A stretch of 64,000 bases of DNA from a virus. Taxonomy: Duplodnaviria > Heunggongvirae > Uroviricota > Caudoviricetes. Position 1 is the stretch's first letter; each line of letters opens with the position of its first letter. Shown here piece by piece: positions 13,033 to 60,270 of this stretch. The translations under genes were made by a program, and so were the position numbers. The notes beneath the pieces are model-generated. The model had not been told where the DNA came from. It made no database searches and was given only the letters and a program-made list of their open reading frames with translations. Location of the stretch: the IMG/VR virus record IMGVR_UViG_3300024265_000032. One strand, 5' to 3'.

Positions 13033-13064
13033 TGGCACAAGCGATGCAGTTGCACGTATAATGG
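13033..13064 (+). promoter_or_regulatory. sigma70-like promoter (TTGGCA N19 TATAAT) for small ORF at 13083
   Basis: cttggcacaagcgatgcagttgcacgtataatgg; first plus-strand promoter after the repeat array. Confidence 0.45.
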
Positions 13065-13082
13065 AATAGAAGGAGAAATGAT

Positions 13083-13232
13083 ATGTTGACGAAGAAACAA
13101 CGAGACGAGATTCGCAAAGGACTTGTTCATTGTGATTTAAGTCCCTTGGATGAGAGCGAACGTAACCTAGAAACTTGCCTCAACGATCTAGACGAGAAAG
13201 ACATCATCATCAAGCAATTCGAAAATGAGTGA
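13083..13232 (+). CDS. small acidic protein (49 aa, MLTKKQRDEIRKGL...)
   Basis: AAGGAG RBS 8 nt upstream; preceded by TATAAT. Confidence 0.4.
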   Translation: MLTKKQRDEIRKGLVHCDLSPLDESERNLETCLNDLDEKDIIIKQFENE

Positions 13233-13325
13233 GGTAGACTCCCGCTCTTCCCCCCTCTCTTTCCTCCACCCCCCCGTATTATCGGCTAGAAAAAAATCGA
13301 AACGAAGTGGGACAAGGGTGTGTGT

Positions 13326-13350
13326 TTCACGTATAATAAGGTATCAGGAG
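13326..13350 (+). promoter_or_regulatory. promoter-like CACGTATAAT followed by 5-prime hairpin ATCAGG-AGTA-CCTGAT
   Basis: tcacgtataataaggtatcaggagtacctgatcc. Confidence 0.4.
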
Positions 13351-13393
13351 TACCTGATCCCAGAGCTTCGCACGGTTTTTGAAAGAAACAGAT

Positions 13394-13504
13394 ATGAGTT
13401 TTTTTACTGCCTTACTATGCGGTGTGATTTGTACAGCGATAATAGCCTTTGTGGCGATCAAGTTCGTTGTCCCTTTCATGGATCATATTAGTAATCGACT
13501 AGTA
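13394..13504 (+). CDS. small hydrophobic peptide (~36 aa, MSFFTALLCGVICTAIIAFVAIKFVVPF...)
   Basis: single TM-like peptide; weak RBS. Confidence 0.3.
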
Positions 13505-13695
13505 TGAACTCCCTTTTTGCGTCCTGCTCCCCTGGAGATCGTAATGTCTATTTACTCGCCGTATCCGGACAACGAAAGAGACAAACAGATAAATAGAGAA
13601 GTCAACAGATTTGTTGCGCGGTGCTTGGCTATATCATTTGGTCTGCTTGTCATCGTGTGTTTCGTTGCTGCAATAGTCTAAAAGAAAGAAAAAAA

Positions 13696-14022
13696 ATGAT
13701 CACCGTAACAAAATTAGCTGCACGAGAAATAAAGAAGATCATCGAAGAGAAGAACAGATCGACAGACCTGTATCTTCGCATTGGAGTCCTGGGTGGAGGT
13801 TGCAGCGGCTTCCGTTACTCTCTAGAACTGACAACGGAAAAGACAGACAACGATGAGGTTTATCCTCAACACGGTATCGTGGTTATCTGTGATCCCAAGA
13901 GTCATCTGTATTTAGATGGCACAACGGTAGGCTTTAGTGACGAAGTCATGGGTCGTGGATTCGTGTTCAATAATCCTAACGCCACCAATCGTTGTGGATG
14001 CGGAAGCAGTTTTTCAGCTTAG
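13696..14022 (+). CDS. A-type Fe-S cluster carrier (IscA/HesB/SufA family)
   Basis: LRIGVLGGGCSGFRYSLEL ... NPNATNRCGCGSSFSA: the three conserved Cys (C-x...-C-G-C) and C-terminal CGCGxSF signature of HesB/IscA. Confidence 0.8.
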   Translation: MITVTKLAAREIKKIIEEKNRSTDLYLRIGVLGGGCSGFRYSLELTTEKTDNDEVYPQHGIVVICDPKSHLYLDGTTVGFSDEVMGRGFVFNNPNATNRCGCGSSFSA

Positions 14023-14067
14023 AGGAAAAAATGACTCCATCTATTATTGAGCCAAAGGAATAGAAAA

Positions 14068-14364
14068 ATGTTTCAACCTACAACATACGTCAAGATCATC
14101 TGTGTCCTGCTTGTTATCAAAGGCATGTCTTTGTACTATGAGGACTTTATTGCCTTCACTGCCGACAACGAATATATGACCGAATGTATCATGCACGATC
14201 CGCTCACACCTGTCGATTATGAATTTTATTATCTCGATGAGGCGGTTTACGTCGTCACTTACGAAGGACGTACCCGATGGAACGGCGAAAAATGCAAAGA
14301 GCGTAAATGCGTGGATGTCACAGAATACAGGCGAGCTAAGGCTGTCGTTGGAGAACAGAAATGA
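14068..14364 (+). CDS. hypothetical protein with N-terminal TM segment
   Basis: ORF track; AAGGAA RBS. Confidence 0.5.
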   Translation: MFQPTTYVKIICVLLVIKGMSLYYEDFIAFTADNEYMTECIMHDPLTPVDYEFYYLDEAVYVVTYEGRTRWNGEKCKERKCVDVTEYRRAKAVVGEQK

Positions 14365-14810
14365 ATAGTTTGACCACGAAGGAATACGATACGATTACAA
14401 ACAGGAATCTTTGTCCTGACTGCGGTGCTAAGAACCAATTTTTGGCTGGACCATGTGGTGGTGGAAGTCAGAACATTATATGCGCCGTATGTCACATGAG
14501 ATTCAACATCGGCCCTGGCTCTGGCGAACGCATCGGAAAAGAAGAACATGTCAAGCTTGATCCGATCGCTATTGATGAAGGAACCATGTCTTGGAGCAAA
14601 CAAAATAGATTCGAGTACTTAACACATTCGTGTGGCGGAAGTCTTGATCTACACACGATTGATCATGATACATCAGCCTTGTTGTGTAGAAAGTGTGGAA
14701 TGAGGCAGGTGTTTAAGGACCATCGAATCGTTGATATGGAAACCACTTCTTACAAGACTCTTGCTTTTTTCGAGTATATCCGTGACAACAACCCTATTAC
14801 TGGGAGATAG
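14361..14810 (+). CDS. multi-Zn-ribbon protein (149 aa)
   Basis: CPDCG...CAVCH...CRKCG; start overlaps upstream stop (ATGA). Confidence 0.55.
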   Translation: MNSLTTKEYDTITNRNLCPDCGAKNQFLAGPCGGGSQNIICAVCHMRFNIGPGSGERIGKEEHVKLDPIAIDEGTMSWSKQNRFEYLTHSCGGSLDLHTIDHDTSALLCRKCGMRQVFKDHRIVDMETTSYKTLAFFEYIRDNNPITGR

Positions 14811-14812
14811 AA

Positions 14813-58679: not shown

Positions 58680-58957
58680 AAATAACAGTTGAAAAACATG
58701 AATTGATGTCTCATCCCGAGCGTGTCGAAACTAATCCACGTTGGTTAAAATCTTTGGCTGATTTTTTGTGTGAATCCACAGAGCGTACTTGTTTGTTTGG
58801 CAAATGTGAAAATAGATGTTTATACGAAGCTGATTGGATGCCTACGGGTGTCGTTTGTATTACAAATACGAAAACCTATTGTTATTTTCATCTTTCTAGA
58901 CAAGAAGCCAGTTGTTTGGCAGCTAAAATAAAATTGATATTATGCGAGAAAGAATAG
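58676..58957 (+). CDS. hypothetical Cys-containing protein (93 aa)
   Basis: ATGA overlap. Confidence 0.5.
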   Translation: MKITVEKHELMSHPERVETNPRWLKSLADFLCESTERTCLFGKCENRCLYEADWMPTGVVCITNTKTYCYFHLSRQEASCLAAKIKLILCEKE

Positions 58958-58958
58958 T

Positions 58959-59135
58959 ATGCCAGAAGAAAACAAACCACTTTGCGATCGCTGTACCAAA
59001 CCCGGTATCAATCAGGAATATGTCGGATACGGAATGATGTATTGTCAGAAATGCATCGAAGAAGAACTGGTCAGAATGCCGGGGGGTGTCTTTAGGTTCA
59101 AGACAGACCAAGAACTACAGAAGGCGAAACAATGA
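58959..59135 (+). CDS. Zn-ribbon small protein (~58 aa)
   Basis: CDRCTK...CQKCIEE. Confidence 0.4.
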   Translation: MPEENKPLCDRCTKPGINQEYVGYGMMYCQKCIEEELVRMPGGVFRFKTDQELQKAKQ

Positions 59136-59329
59136 TTTATTTTGTGATTGCTCAGAGAGATGATGACGGTGAATGGGAAATTGTTTTCGGTCCCAAAGGC
59201 GAGATCGATGGTATCGACGATAAGGTAGCCGAAGCAGAAGAAAACCCGGACTATTCTCAGGTTGAAATAGCCAGGGTCATAACGCAAGACGACAAACTAG
59301 ACAATGTTGAGTGGGGGTCGATCCTATGA
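59132..59329 (+). CDS. acidic small protein (65 aa)
   Basis: ORF track. Confidence 0.45.
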   Translation: MIYFVIAQRDDDGEWEIVFGPKGEIDGIDDKVAEAEENPDYSQVEIARVITQDDKLDNVEWGSIL

Positions 59330-59772
59330 AGAAGTGGTTGATTTTGATTCTGGTGGCTTTGTTCTCATCTCCGGTAATGGCCGGTCAGCCAAAACCGAGA
59401 GGGCCTAGTCGTTCTCTGAATAGCCGTCCAAGAATCAGCAGCATGAAGGATCGGGGGAAGCCTAATGTCCGAGTCGACACCCGAAAGAAAGCCAATAGTC
59501 TATCTCTTAGTCGTAACCGACCGGTGGAGTCAATCATATACGAAGATCACTATTACAGGCCACCGCAGCCGATAATATTGATTGTTCGTGTGCTTCCGAC
59601 ACCAACACCTAAACCCGAGCCTAGCCCTAGAATTGTTCCTACATCGAGTCATGTGACCATTTTTGTTCCATCCAAGTCAAGTTCTGGTTCAAAAAGGTTC
59701 CAATCTACATATGGTGGTGGTGGTGGTTTGATAATCTTCCCAGAAAAACCCAAGGCAAAAATCAAACCGTAG
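59326..59772 (+). CDS. secreted Pro/basic-rich protein (signal peptide MKKWLILILVALFSSPVMAGQ)
   Basis: classic Sec signal; PxP-rich body; start at internal Met of track ORF 59311. Confidence 0.5.
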   Translation: MKKWLILILVALFSSPVMAGQPKPRGPSRSLNSRPRISSMKDRGKPNVRVDTRKKANSLSLSRNRPVESIIYEDHYYRPPQPIILIVRVLPTPTPKPEPSPRIVPTSSHVTIFVPSKSSSGSKRFQSTYGGGGGLIIFPEKPKAKIKP

Positions 59773-59783
59773 GTGTATAACAT
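59773..59783 (+). promoter_or_regulatory. GGTGTATAACATAGTG promoter-like motif
   Basis: same core as 56562 motif. Confidence 0.3.
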
Positions 59784-59854
59784 AGTGGACGAAAGTGTTG
59801 AGCAGGCGTCGAACAACGGAGTTACGCCATCCTTGCGCGTCGTTCGCTACCTAA

Positions 59855-59893
59855 GTGACCGGGGGCCTTTGAAAAAAGGCCCTCGATTTTTTC
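59855..59893 (+). terminator. rho-independent terminator
   Basis: gggggcctttgaaaaaaggccctcg + attttttcg. Confidence 0.65.
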
Positions 59894-59905
59894 GTTAGGG
59901 GTTTC

Positions 59906-60220
59906 ATGGCAAAACTGTGGTATTTGATCCTTCCGACAATCATGTTCCTAGTATCTTTGTTCGATCTGGGGACAACGCTTTATTGTAGCCGCAACATCAG
60001 TAATTTCGAGGAAGCGAATCCGATCGCACGGTGTGTGTGGCAGGATCATGGCGACACCGGTTTCATCATCTTCAAGTTGTGCTTCACTTTGCCGTCTTGC
60101 TTCTGCGTCGGATATGTTCTTAAATACAAGAATAGACGATGGCAATTAGCAACTTCAGTATTCGGACTTACGACTTGCACTTTTCTTGTCGCGTGGTGGA
60201 TTTTTTGGCTGTTTTTCTGA
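59906..60220 (+). CDS. multi-pass membrane protein (DUF5658-like candidate)
   Basis: 3 hydrophobic helices; Trp-rich C-terminus. Confidence 0.5.
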   Translation: MAKLWYLILPTIMFLVSLFDLGTTLYCSRNISNFEEANPIARCVWQDHGDTGFIIFKLCFTLPSCFCVGYVLKYKNRRWQLATSVFGLTTCTFLVAWWIFWLFF

Positions 60221-60234
60221 AACAAACTACGTCG

Positions 60235-60270
60235 TTGGACGTATAATGAGATAGCAGCATCGTGCTGCCC
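60235..60270 (+). promoter_or_regulatory. early-type promoter TTGGACGTATAATGAG + 5-prime hairpin GCAGCA-TCG-TGCTGC
   Basis: gtcgttggacgtataatgagatagcagcatcgtgctgccctc. Confidence 0.5.

What the first reader, a model, noticed from the sequence alone, without database searches (positions are those of the whole stretch)
13033..60250. Two recurrent promoter-like motif families with structured leaders
Family 1: TTGGACGTATAATGA(G/T) at ~18402, ~57833 and ~60235, with CACGTATAAT variants at ~13053 and ~13328, each about 19 nt after a TTGGA/TTGGC element. This looks like an early, host sigma70-type promoter. Three of these are followed by small leader hairpins, two with an identical GAGTAC-containing loop (ATCAGG-AGTA-CCTGAT; GTCGGG-AGTA-CCCGAC). 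Family 2: (G/T)GTGTATAA(T/C) at ~34504, ~41235, ~43884, ~47011, ~56564 and ~59775. These lie in front of the sigma-like gene, the portal, the scaffold, the HTH/fibre module and the tail gene, and several are embedded in short inverted repeats (CAAGGTT...AACCTTG; ACTATG...CATAGT). They are possibly middle/late promoters read with the phage sigma-like factor (34685..35272) or the double-HTH protein (47052..47444).
Basis: seen in the sequence. Interest (0 to 1): 0.5.

Follow-up and report, generated by a model that had tools for sequence, protein, structure and literature searches.

The report
Early and late phage promoter families
Two short DNA signals that recur in front of genes of an uncultured phage of about 170 kb behave like real promoters: one has the usual two-part layout, and the other is a single 11-base box, kept unchanged across the whole phage group, that is probably read by the phage's own cut-down sigma factor.

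Summary
Both motif families are real, non-random, intergenic and co-oriented with genes.

**Family 1.** Layout is T-rich UP region, nGAACA, 17 nt, (a)CG-TATAAT. They sit in front of nucleotide/DNA-metabolism operons and a phage tmRNA.

**Family 2.** Consensus is T(G/T)GTGTATAA(T/a/c). The window holds 8 intergenic copies. There is no -35 information at all. GTGTATAA is the most enriched 8-mer in 392 upstream regions of the window plus 63 related IMG/VR loci. It stays at orthologous sites (sigma operon, portal, g43914, g47052, tail gene) down to about 40% protein identity. In three distant relatives it lies at exact leaderless-mRNA distance from the ATG.

**The sigma-like protein (34685-35272).** It has sigma region 2 in 28/28 homologues tested and no detectable region 4. 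Its predicted DNA-reading helix is invariant, like the motif.

**Best reading (about 0.5).** Family 1 is host-type early/middle. Family 2 is a -35-independent late class read by the phage sigma, analogous to T4 gp55 but unrelated in sequence. This was not shown: the sigma gene itself sits behind a family-2 site, and both families share G-TATAAT.

Leader hairpins and promoter-embedding inverted repeats are not general features.

Seen in passing: about 115 copies of TTATCGGAC at 7.5-13 kb, plus one conserved copy abutting the sigma promoter.

The parts
13015..13062 (+). Family-1 promoter P13057: A-rich tract AAAAAAATCGAA (13015-13026), -35-like GGCACA (13034-13039), 17-nt spacer, CG+TATAAT (13055-13062). 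The start codon of a 49-aa ORF lies 21 nt downstream (13083).
13290..13358 (+). Family-1 promoter P13332: the same AAAAAAATCGAA tract (13290-13301), GGGACA (13309-13314), CG+TATAAT (13330-13337), then the leader hairpin ATCAGG-AGTA-CCTGAT (13343-13358).
18370..18439 (+). Family-1 promoter P18409: T-rich tract, GGAACA (18386-18391), TTGGACG+TATAAT (18402-18414), and the leader hairpin GTCGGG-AGTA-CCCGAC (18424-18439; z -3.1). The gene starts at 18453.
34396..34440 (-). It drives the DNA methylase / MazG / HNH / NUDIX / nucleotidyltransferase operon (34362 leftwards). It is conserved in relatives, with CGAACA, GAAACA or AGAACA as the -35.
57772..57845 (+). Strong terminator (57772-57801) followed by family-1 promoter P57840: GGAGCA (57817-57822) and TTGGACG+TATAAT (57833-57845). 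The gene starts at 57862. The syntenic site in L080 at 7858 has AGAACC-N17-TATAAT.
60205..60268 (+). Family-1 promoter P60242: GAAACA (60219-60224), TTGGACG+TATAAT (60235-60247), and the leader hairpin GCAGCA-TCG-TGCTGC (60254-60268). It lies upstream of a 39-aa ORF and the phage tmRNA (60432-60782).
34469..34513 (+). Sigma-operon control region: near-palindrome GTCTATATATATGGAG (34469-34484), TTATCGGAC (34493-34501), and the family-2 box TTGTGTATAAT (34503-34513), 12 nt before g34525. All three elements are conserved in relatives. The spacing between TTATCGGAC and the box is variable (0 to about 25 nt of inserted sequence in the alignment).
41234..41244 (+). Family-2 box TGGTGTATAAT, 53 nt before the portal gene (41297). 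It is conserved in 20 relatives, down to 54% protein identity.
43883..43893 (+). It is conserved down to about 37% protein identity, and at leaderless spacing in L055, L013 and L056.
46960..47036 (+). Terminator after the capsid gene (46960-46987), family-2 box TGGTGTATAAT (47009-47019), and the conserved leader motif GTGAAAGGTCTTTT (47023-47036) before g47052.
56562..56572 (+). It is conserved in L047, L029, L050, L061 and L080.
59771..59893 (+). Family-2 box AGGTGTATAAC (59771-59781), followed by about 100 nt of structured non-coding sequence and a strong terminator (59860-59885). This is a candidate small RNA.
30565..30575 (-). Family-2 box on the minus strand (CGGTGTATAAT), 21 nt before the NUDIX hydrolase gene (30544 leftwards).
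28410..28420 (-). Exact GTGTATAA core on the minus strand overlapping the stop codon of the ORF at 28411-28845, 46 nt before a 36-aa gene. Its context (CG before, G after) departs from the consensus, so membership is uncertain.
34685..35272 (+). Phage sigma-like protein (195 aa; homologues are 183-185 aa). It has sigma region 2, and a C-terminal three-helix domain without a detectable region-4 HTH. The window copy carries a 10-aa in-frame duplication.
34525..34710 (+). Small acidic protein (61 aa) co-transcribed with the sigma gene and overlapping it. It is conserved upstream of sigma in relatives. Function unknown.
47052..47444 (+). Tandem-HTH protein (130 aa) whose second HTH passes Pfam Sigma70_r4_2 (34.5 bits, cut-off 25.7). 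It is expressed from a family-2 site.

Best explanation
The window is part of an uncultured phage of about 160-180 kb that appears to run at least two promoter classes.

**Family 1.** Layout: T-rich UP-like tract, nGAACA at the -35 position, 17-nt spacer, (a)CG-TATAAT. I infer that the host RNA polymerase holoenzyme reads it without phage help, and that it drives early/middle operons for nucleotide and DNA metabolism, DNA methylation, a tmRNA, tRNAs and RNA ligase.

**Family 2.** Consensus T(G/T)GTG-TATAA(T/a/c). It is a -35-independent promoter: an ordinary -10 hexamer at -12 to -7, extended upstream by GTG at -15 to -13 and T at -17.

I infer that host core polymerase reads family 2 when loaded with the phage sigma (34685-35272). 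That protein keeps sigma region 2 (-10 recognition and melting) but has lost the region-4 DNA-reading HTH. Family 2 drives the virion and packaging genes, plus the operon that encodes the sigma itself, which would give positive feedback.

The first sigma molecules would come from a weak family-1-like element in the conserved module just upstream (GGAACA/TGAACA-N17-TCTCTA/TAGTAT in relatives), or from basal host reading of the perfect TATAAT.

**Shown:** the motifs, their statistics, their positions, their conservation, the absence of a -35 in family 2, and the domain content of the sigma.

**Inferred:** which sigma reads which family, and the temporal order.
For: **The motifs are real and sit where promoters sit.**
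- Searches give the excess over shuffles.
- Across the window plus 63 related loci there are 191 unique GTGTATAA sites. 144 are intergenic, although only about 11% of the DNA is intergenic.
- 118 of them lie within 150 nt upstream of a co-oriented gene (median 38 nt). Single-substitution control 8-mers are mostly coding.
- De novo, GTGTATAA is the most enriched 8-mer in 392 unique upstream regions (122 regions, 80x). CGTATAAT is the next independent promoter-like word (24x).
- Of 221 TATAA[TAC] sites upstream of genes, 104 are preceded by GTG and 28 by nCG.

**Family 2 has no -35.** Information content is about 0 at every position upstream of -17.

**Phylogenetic footprints.** The box is retained before the sigma operon, portal, g43914, g47052 and g56631 while the flanks diverge, down to about 40% protein identity and across 31-49% GC.

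**The TATAAn is a true -10.** In L055, L013 and L056 the arrangement is GTG-TATAAA-AATTAC-ATG. That is exact leaderless spacing.

**The sigma.**
- 179 homologues, most carrying PF04542.
- 28/28 tested match Sigma70_r2 and 0/28 match any region-4 model.
- TIGR02937 aligns only through model position 72 (120 in one homologue) of 165.
- The N-terminal three helices superpose on the SigE N-terminal domain (rmsd 3.0-3.5 A), and all 50 listed PDB matches are sigma-factor chains or RNA polymerase complexes that contain sigma.
- The helix ENYLxxHVxNRLKNLKRDKYFRP is nearly invariant even at 36% overall identity, while the C-terminal domain is poorly conserved. That mirrors an invariant -10-side motif with no -35.

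**Family 1 tracks phage clade.** GAACA in the 39-49% GC relatives; TTGTTACA, TTGTCACA or GTTTCA in the 31-37% GC relatives. This is as expected if the host reads it.

**Sigma expression.** In relative L012 the sigma operon has no family-2 box, only TGAACA-N17-TAGTAT. So sigma can be expressed from a family-1-type element.

**Gene content.** Strong terminators separate the units.
Against: - There are no transcript 5' ends and no cultured relative (no INPHARED match). The assignment of sigmas and of timing is therefore inference.
- In most relatives the sigma gene lies behind a family-2 box, which needs an extra priming assumption.
- Both families share G at -13 (GTATAAT). That would be most simply explained by one and the same sigma reading both.
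- The family-1 -35 lacks the TTG of TTGACA and fits an ECF-type GAAC-N16-CGTA layout, and the phage sigma is ECF-like by sequence.
- The window protein's own Pfam score is 23.9 against a cut-off of 24.
- The AlphaFold model is poor overall (pLDDT 58) and the Foldseek E-values are above 0.01.
- The host is unknown, so its housekeeping consensus cannot be checked.
Confidence: 0.5

Rival explanations
1. Host housekeeping sigma reads both families. Family 2 would be a -35-independent 'extended -10-like' class of the host enzyme. Its timing would be set by something else, such as a phage factor that blocks -35 use late in infection, as in Thermus phage P23-45, or the TTATCGGAC-binding factor. The phage sigma-like protein would read some other, unrecognised signal or act as a co-factor.
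For: - Both families share the same 7-mer, G-TATAAT.
- TATAAT is the universal housekeeping -10.
- One relative (L008) combines AGAACA-N17 with GTG-TATAAT.
- The sigma gene lying behind family 2 needs no special priming under this reading.
Against: - The GTG sits at -15 to -13, one base closer than the canonical TG at -15/-14. The standard extended -10 definition is therefore not met (sequence).
- Families 1 and 2 are the only over-represented promoter-like words in about 1 Mb of related sequence. A sigma without region 4 would then have no candidate target.
- The box is invariant across relatives whose family-1 -35 differs.
Confidence: 0.25
2. The assignment is reversed. The ECF-like phage sigma would read the ECF-shaped family 1 (GAAC-N16-CGTA), possibly as a split sigma together with the region-4-bearing protein g47052. 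Family 2 would be read by the host enzyme and come first.
For: - Family 1 matches the ECF layout (GAAC, 16 nt, CGTA; the consensus is from my memory of B. subtilis sigma-W).
- The sigma hits sigma70-ECF and ShbA models.
- Both the sigma and g47052 (Sigma70_r4_2, 34.5 bits) lie behind family-2 boxes.
- On TIGR02937 the two proteins cover complementary parts: positions 5-120 and 125-162.
- The variable C-terminal domain of the sigma parallels the variable family-1 -35.
Against: - Portal, terminase and the putative head and tail genes would then be transcribed before, or independently of, the nucleotide and DNA-metabolism operons. That is biologically backwards.
- Family 1 has UP-like T/A tracts and a full TATAAT, which is unusual for ECF promoters.
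- In L012 the sigma operon has only a family-1-type promoter, which would leave no way to start.
- No g47052 copy was found within 10 kb downstream of the capsid gene in L042 and L047.
Confidence: 0.1
3. Family 2 is not a promoter. It would be a conserved operator, processing or packaging-related site that happens to contain TATAA.
For: - At two sites the box lies inside short inverted repeats (43878-43898, 56555-56577).
- One site overlaps a stop codon.
Against: - Strict orientation with the downstream gene, and a median of 38 nt to the start codon.
- Leaderless spacing in three relatives.
- Position right after terminators.
- No general palindromy.
Confidence: 0.05

Closest known systems
Phage T4 late promoters (TATAAATA) read by gp55 with gp33 and the sliding clamp (from established knowledge, not tested here)
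   Same: - A single -10-region box with no -35.
- A small phage sigma of about 185 aa that keeps only the region-2 function.
- The box resembles the host -10.
- It drives virion genes.
   Different: - No sequence relationship was detected: the sigma has no PHROG match at all.
- The extension is upstream (T-K-G-T-G before TATAAT), not downstream.
- No gp33 or clamp partners were identified.
- The sigma gene itself is behind the late-type box.
- The N-terminal domain is ECF-like.
Extended -10 (TGn-TATAAT / TRTGn) promoters, and the Thermus phage P23-45 strategy of switching host polymerase to -35-less promoters (gp39/gp76; PDB 5xj0 appears among the fold hits)
   Same: A perfect -10 with a short conserved upstream extension and no -35, used for middle/late phage genes.
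   Different: - The TG is directly adjacent to TATAAT (positions -14/-13) with a further invariant G at -15. The defining TG at -15/-14 is therefore not met.
- Here a phage sigma exists.
ECF (group 4) sigma promoters such as B. subtilis sigma-W, TGAAAC-N16-CGTA (consensus from memory)
   Same: - Family 1 has GAAC at the -35 position, exactly 16 nt, then CGTA.
- The phage sigma is ECF-like in region 2.
   Different: - Family 1 also has a full TATAAT and A/T-rich UP tracts.
- The phage sigma lacks the region-4 HTH needed to read GAAC.
- The -35 changes between clades.
SPO1 gp28 and gp33/gp34 cascade in Bacillus phages, and two-subunit sigma SigO-RsoA (from established knowledge)
   Same: - Phage-encoded sigma(s) replacing the host sigma for later classes.
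- A precedent for sigma functions split over two polypeptides (region-2 protein plus region-4 protein), compare the sigma and g47052.
   Different: - The SPO1 classes have bipartite promoters with unrelated consensus sequences.
- There is no evidence here that the sigma and g47052 interact.

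Membership tests
Housekeeping sigma70/sigma-A type -35/-10 promoter (family 1) | -10 hexamer TATAAT at the proper distance from a gene | tested here: met
   All six sites are 6/6 TATAAT, 17-207 nt before start codons.
Housekeeping sigma70/sigma-A type -35/-10 promoter (family 1) | -35 hexamer close to TTGACA, 16-18 nt upstream | tested here: inconclusive
   The spacing is exactly 17 nt. 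The hexamer is GGAACA, GGGACA, GGCACA, GGAGCA or GAAACA, which matches only ACA (3/6) and lacks TTG. The same holds in 20 sites of relatives. The host consensus is unknown.
Housekeeping sigma70/sigma-A type -35/-10 promoter (family 1) | Transcription start 6-8 nt downstream of the -10, dependent on host holoenzyme | not testable with these tools
   No transcript data; the phage is uncultured.
ECF-type promoter (family 1) | GAAC-containing -35, 16-17 nt, CGT-containing -10 | tested here: met
   AAC at -21 to -19 and CGT at -2 to 0 relative to the T of TATAAT, which is a 16-nt gap. Without preselecting CG, C at -14 holds in 13 of the 24 promoter-like matches listed, and G at -13 in most of those with a full TATAAT.
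ECF-type promoter (family 1) | A cognate ECF sigma with regions 2 and 4 | tested here: not met
   The phage sigma has region 2 only. A host ECF sigma cannot be examined.
Extended -10 promoter (family 2) | TG at -15/-14, one base upstream of the -10 hexamer | tested here: not met
   The consensus is T-K-G-T-G-TATAAT, so the TG is at -14/-13. The register is fixed by the leaderless cases.
T4-type late promoter / gp55-like sigma system (family 2 plus the protein at 34685-35272) | Promoter consisting of a -10-region box only, with no -35 | tested here: met
   No information upstream of -17 in 192 sites.
T4-type late promoter / gp55-like sigma system (family 2 plus the protein at 34685-35272) | Phage sigma homologous to gp55 | tested here: not met
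   No PHROG family at E<=0.001. No tblastn match in 50,697 phage records.
T4-type late promoter / gp55-like sigma system (family 2 plus the protein at 34685-35272) | Dependence on a co-activator (gp33) and the DNA-loaded sliding clamp | not testable with these tools
   The only candidate partners are the co-transcribed 61-aa acidic protein (34525-34710) and g47052. No homology was detected.
Sigma70 protein family (protein at 34685-35272) | Region 2 (core binding, -10 recognition) | tested here: met
   - PF04542 in 28/28 homologues, best E 3.9e-8.
- The window copy scores 23.9 bits against a cut-off of 24.
- TIGR02937 and ShbA match over region 2.
- PDB ECF sigma 9isn at E 0.011.
- The fold matches the SigE N-terminal domain at rmsd 3.0-3.5 A.
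Sigma70 protein family (protein at 34685-35272) | Region 4 HTH (-35 recognition) | tested here: not met
   - 0/28 homologues hit Sigma70_r4 or r4_2, even at E<=5.
- The profile match stops at model position 72-120 of 165.
- The C-terminal three helices are poorly conserved.
- A degenerate flap-binding remnant cannot be excluded.

The most novel reading that the evidence does not exclude
The switch to late transcription may be timed by decoy-site titration.

The 9-mer TTATCGGAC abuts the sigma-operon promoter at 34493-34501, and that copy is conserved in relatives, including distant ones as TTATAGGAC or TTATGGGAC. The same 9-mer occurs about 115 times in the 5-kb early-region array at 7.5-13 kb. 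The array is conserved with the identical 9-mer across the clade.

A sequence-specific factor bound at the sigma promoter would hold back the self-amplifying sigma/family-2 circuit. Replication would multiply the array, soak the factor up, and so couple late transcription to genome copy number by a route different from T4's sliding clamp.
Probability: 0.07. Interest if true: 0.8.

Novelty: new variant of a known kind. Interest (0 to 1): 0.45.

Why it matters
- It gives a usable transcription map for a widespread, entirely uncultured clade of phages of about 160-180 kb whose structural proteins mostly match no known family.
- The map consists of an 11-bp late box, an early bipartite box and the terminators. 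These can be used to annotate temporal classes, small RNAs and leaderless genes in hundreds of metagenomic contigs.
- If the sigma assignment holds, this is an independent, ECF-derived origin of -35-independent late transcription. It parallels T4 gp55 without homology.
- It offers a compact sigma/promoter pair (about 185 aa plus 11 bp) of possible use as an orthogonal expression module.
- It also points to the unexplained TTATCGGAC array as part of the same control region.

Tried and rejected
- **Cultured relatives.** A near-identity search of the 8-kb late region against cultured phages found nothing. tblastn of the sigma found nothing. TerL reaches only about 25% identity to Bacillus phages. 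No annotated relative could be used.
- **Related loci.**
  - The 17405-18304 protein brought in mostly unrelated phages (GC 40-69%); only L064 belongs to the clade.
  - The queries 57862-58269 and 7892-8347 found no relatives.
- **Strict family-1 regex in those loci.** It gave only chance hits.
- **Generic sigma70 consensus scan.** It does not exceed shuffles (31 vs 28.6; 45 vs 42.9). The tool therefore cannot by itself identify the early promoters of the minus-strand block at 1-13 kb, whose promoters remain unassigned.
- **Inverted repeats embedding family 2.** Rejected as a general feature.
- **'GTCCTATAAT' as a third promoter family.** I first saw it. It is only a variant of the TTATCGGAC array on the other strand.
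- **A protein family shared by all array-bearing loci.** None found (best 11 of 78 loci).
- **Literature.** Searches for GTGTATAAT, TTATCGGAC and GTCCGATAA gave no relevant paper.
- **Host identification.** Not achieved. The tmRNA tag GESQFRMAA and the strong GGAGG ribosome-binding sites were not decisive.

Full report
**Context**

The window (44.7% GC) has no close match among 50,697 cultured-phage records. Its large terminase is only about 25% identical to those of Bacillus siphoviruses.

IMG/VR holds many relatives on contigs of 160-181 kb. The window is therefore about a third of a large uncultured phage genome.

Genes fall into four strand blocks:
- 1-13.1 kb, minus strand: small genes.
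- 13.1-27.4 kb, plus strand.
- 27.4-34.4 kb, minus strand.
- 34.5-64 kb, plus strand.

Recognisable functions:
- 13-34 kb: topoisomerase-like protein, exonucleases, deoxyribosyltransferase, MazG, NUDIX, HNH endonuclease, nucleotidyltransferase and DNA methylase.
- 34.5-57.7 kb: sigma-like protein, glycosyltransferase, GDP-mannose dehydratase, ERCC4 nuclease, TerL, portal and unknown virion-size proteins.
- After 57.8 kb: RNA ligase, a tmRNA and tRNAs.

**Checking the observation**

*Family 1.* The exact 16-mer occurs three times, against 0.08 expected. I found a sixth member on the minus strand, at 34396-34424, in front of the methylase operon.

Aligned on TATAAT, all six share three things:
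- a T/A-rich tract;
- a hexamer GGnACA/GAAACA exactly 17 nt upstream;
- (G/C)ACG immediately before TATAAT.

A PWM from 20 sites finds these six and nothing else in the window.

The core GTGTATAA gives 9 against 1.65 expected. Eight of the nine are intergenic or at a gene end.

*Leader hairpins.* They exist at three family-1 sites. Only one is clearly more stable than shuffled sequence. Relatives mostly go straight from the promoter to ATAGAAGGAGA.

**Are they more than chance, and are they promoters?**

I called genes in 63 related loci (about 1.08 Mb) and classified every unique GTGTATAA site:
- 144 of 191 are intergenic, although about 89% of the DNA is coding.
- 118 lie within 150 nt upstream of a gene on the same strand (median 38 nt).
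- One-substitution control words are overwhelmingly coding.

A blind 8-mer enrichment over 392 unique upstream regions gave this ranking:
- GTGTATAA first (122 regions, 80-fold).
- CGTATAAT as the next promoter-like word (24-fold).
- Two other words also stood out: GTGAAAGGTCTTTT and TATCGGAC.

Among upstream TATAA[TAC] hexamers, 104 of 221 are preceded by GTG and 28 by nCG. These two families are therefore essentially the whole recognisable promoter repertoire of the clade in the regions sampled.

**Anatomy of family 2**

The profile over 192 sites shows the following:
- information only at T(-17), K(-16) and G-T-G(-15 to -13);
- then the TATAA;
- a weak T/A at the last hexamer position;
- nothing at all in the -35 region.

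The box is kept at orthologous positions while everything around it drifts. This holds before the sigma operon, the portal gene, g43914, g47052 and g56631, in relatives from 31 to 49% GC and down to about 40% protein identity.

For g43914 the distance from box to start codon is fixed at 19-23 nt, with GGAGG in between. In three distant relatives (L055, L013, L056) the arrangement is GTG-TATAAA-AATTAC-ATG. That places the hexamer at -12 to -7 with the A of the start codon as +1, the signature of a leaderless mRNA. This is the best sequence-level evidence that TATAAn is a true -10 element in the usual register.

In that register the TG sits at -14/-13. The canonical extended -10 definition (TG at -15/-14) is therefore not met.

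Inverted repeats around the box are present at two window sites but are not a property of the family.

**Anatomy of family 1 in relatives**

CGTATAAT-type promoters in relatives have the same plan: T-rich tract, (t/c/g)GAACA(a)A, 17 nt, aCG-TATAAT. This includes the syntenic sites for P57840 and P60242 in L080.

The -35 lacks the TTG of TTGACA. On paper the layout equals an ECF promoter (GAAC-N16-CGTA, from memory).

In the low-GC, distant relatives the -35 region differs (TTGTTACA, TTGTCACA, GTTTCA), while TATAAT and the family-2 box stay the same.

Searching GAACA-N17-TATAAT without preselecting CG shows that G at -13 is still nearly universal, and C at -14 frequent. Both families thus share G-TATAAT.

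**The sigma-like protein**
- It has 179 homologues, all 183-185 aa and most carrying PF04542.
- The window copy carries a private in-frame 10-aa duplication.
- All 28 tested members match Sigma70_r2. None matches any region-4 model, even at E<=5.
- The ECF superfamily model aligns only to its first 72-120 of 165 positions.
- The profile's only near-significant PDB hit (E 0.011) is an ECF sigma, over region 2.
- The AlphaFold model is weak overall (pLDDT 58). It gives three N-terminal helices that superpose on the SigE N-terminal domain, and all 50 listed PDB matches are sigma-factor chains or RNA polymerase complexes containing sigma.
- By eye, the C-terminal part keeps the 'LPE...' start of region 4 but lacks the helix-turn-helix segment. 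This is my inference from the alignment.
- Across relatives at 36-62% identity, the third helix (ENYLxxHVxNRLKNLKRDKYFRP) is nearly invariant, whereas the C-terminal domain has almost no invariant residues.

An invariant -10-reading helix with a variable, HTH-less tail matches an invariant -10-side box with no -35.

**The double-HTH protein**

g47052 passes Pfam Sigma70_r4_2 (34.5 bits). It aligns to the region-4.2 part of the ECF model, positions 125-162.

It is conserved, and is always preceded by its own family-2 box and a conserved leader, GTGAAAGGTCTTTT.

It is an unlikely reader of family 2, for three reasons:
- Family 2 has no upstream box for it to bind.
- The protein is itself family-2-dependent.
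- No copy was found within 10 kb downstream of the capsid gene in L042 and L047, which still carry 4-5 boxes.

Two ideas remain open: that it complements the sigma as a split sigma, or that it shuts off -35-dependent promoters late in infection.

**How it most likely works**

I commit, at about 0.5, to the following.

Family 1 is read by host holoenzyme and gives early/middle expression. Family 2 is read by core polymerase carrying the phage sigma and gives late expression, with positive feedback on the sigma operon.

Priming of sigma synthesis is the weak point. The conserved module upstream of the sigma operon contains a -35-like GGAACA or TGAACA 17 nt before a poor -10 (TCTCTA), followed by a TATATATAT near-palindrome and TTATCGGAC. 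In L012 there is no family-2 box at all, and the module reads TGAACA-N17-TAGTAT. That shows the operon can run from a family-1-type promoter.

Rivals:
- Host sigma reads both families (0.25). The shared G-TATAAT favours it. The non-canonical register, and the lack of any other target for a region-4-less sigma, count against it.
- The assignment is reversed, with the ECF-like sigma, alone or with g47052, reading family 1 (0.1). The ECF-like shape of family 1 favours it. It would put the portal, terminase and the other late-block genes (their virion roles partly inferred) ahead of the nucleotide and DNA-metabolism genes.
- Family 2 is not a promoter at all (0.05).

**Comparison with known systems**

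Functionally, the closest system is T4 gp55 with its -10-only TATAAATA late promoters. The protein shows no detectable homology to any phage sigma family in PHROGs and is ECF-like in region 2.

The box extends upstream rather than downstream. It also fails the extended -10 definition by one base.

I therefore rate it a new variant of a known kind: a phage sigma with a -35-independent late promoter class.

**Other things seen**

*The TTATCGGAC array.* The 9-mer occurs 132 times in the window at <=1 mismatch, against 14.8 expected. 115 of these copies lie between 7.5 and 13 kb, and 90 of those are on the transcribed (minus) strand.

The spacing is irregular, with a median of 35 nt. There is no codon phase and no flank conservation.

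Pairs of copies form three hairpin terminators.

The same 9-mer forms dense arrays in at least eight contigs of the clade, including distant members, and in other large viral contigs.

The only exact plus-strand copy outside the array abuts the sigma promoter, and that copy is conserved there. I could not identify the binding factor.

*Candidate small RNA.* The family-2 site at 59773 appears to drive a non-coding RNA of about 100 nt that ends in a strong terminator. The unit is conserved in L079/L080.

*tmRNA.* The family-1 promoter at 60242 precedes a phage tmRNA (137 bits).

Noticed in passing
window 7500-13000 (for example exact copies on the minus strand at 8828-8836, 8853-8861, 12877-12885); also 34493-34501 (+); L064 4700-7350; L088, L101, L132, L133, L139, L150, L153: Dense array of the 9-mer TTATCGGAC (GTCCGATAA on the plus strand).
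- 115 copies at <=1 mismatch in 5.5 kb, 90 of them on the transcribed minus strand.
- Irregular spacing (15-433 nt, median 35), no codon phase, no flank conservation. The array runs through ORFs and gaps.
- The identical 9-mer forms arrays in many contigs of the clade and in other large viral contigs.
- One conserved copy abuts the sigma-operon promoter.
- The function is unknown. Candidates are a binding-site sink, an origin, a polar signal, or stoperator-like sites.
   Followed up: partly
window 59771-59893 (+); L079/L080 8837-8950: A family-2 box followed by about 100 nt of structured sequence (MFE -39.6 kcal/mol, z -3.06) and a strong terminator, with no ORF. The unit is conserved in a relative at about 70% identity. 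It is a candidate late small RNA, and it has no Rfam match at gathering threshold.
   Followed up: partly
window 60432-60782 (+); 63090-63335 (+); 6830-6900 (-): Phage-encoded tmRNA (Rfam RF00023, 137 bits; tag peptide GESQFRMAA) about 190 nt downstream of family-1 promoter P60242. There is also a tRNA cluster (Phe, Ala, Asp) and a further tRNA-Asp in the minus-strand block. The syntenic promoter in L080 precedes a protein gene instead.
   Followed up: partly
window 43836-43849 and 47023-47036 (+): Third conserved motif, GTGAAAGGTCTTTT, about 60-fold enriched in upstream regions of the clade.
- It lies in the 5' leader of g47052 in nearly all relatives.
- It also lies about 35 nt upstream of the family-2 box of g43914.
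- It is possibly an operator or an RNA-binding site.
   Followed up: partly
window 34469-34484 (+): Conserved near-palindrome CTCTCTATATATATGGAGGG between the divergent methylase (family 1) and sigma (family 2) promoters. It is retained in relatives together with a -35-like GGAACA 21 nt upstream. It could be an operator, or a weak priming promoter for the sigma operon.
   Followed up: partly
window 35042-35101 (protein residues about 120-139 of 34685-35272): The window's sigma carries an in-frame tandem duplication of 10 aa (DPINYILCED/DPINYILCEE). It is absent from all 27 aligned homologues, including one at 95% identity. It lies in the low-confidence linker before the C-terminal domain.
   Followed up: no
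window 8800-12100 (for example 9071-9112, 10455-10496, 11834-11875; terminators 9181-9158, 10565-10546, 12054-12035): Longer repeats recur with a period of about 1380-1386 nt, each ending in a GGGTCCGAATTATCGGACCC+T-run hairpin. This suggests three diverged tandem cassettes of small minus-strand genes inside the array.
   Followed up: no
window 13015-13026 and 13290-13301 (+): The two adjacent family-1 promoters, P13057 and P13332, share an identical upstream tract AAAAAAATCGAA at the same distance (-42 to -31). This points to a local promoter duplication 275 nt apart.
   Followed up: no
window 35253-38576 (+): The sigma operon continues into a glycosyltransferase-like gene and a GDP-mannose 4,6-dehydratase (Pfam E 5.5e-115), upstream of an ERCC4-type nuclease and TerL. 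Together with the SAM-decarboxylase-like, deoxyribosyltransferase, MazG and nucleotidyltransferase genes elsewhere in the window, this suggests DNA or virion glycosylation or hypermodification.
   Followed up: no
L026, L028, L033, L034, L039, L044, L049, L061, L062 at about 11150 (+): In many relatives the gene directly after the major capsid gene (415-590 aa) has its own family-1 promoter inside the late block. The window instead has the family-2 box and g47052 at that place. This looks like an inserted, early-type gene in the virion module.
   Followed up: no
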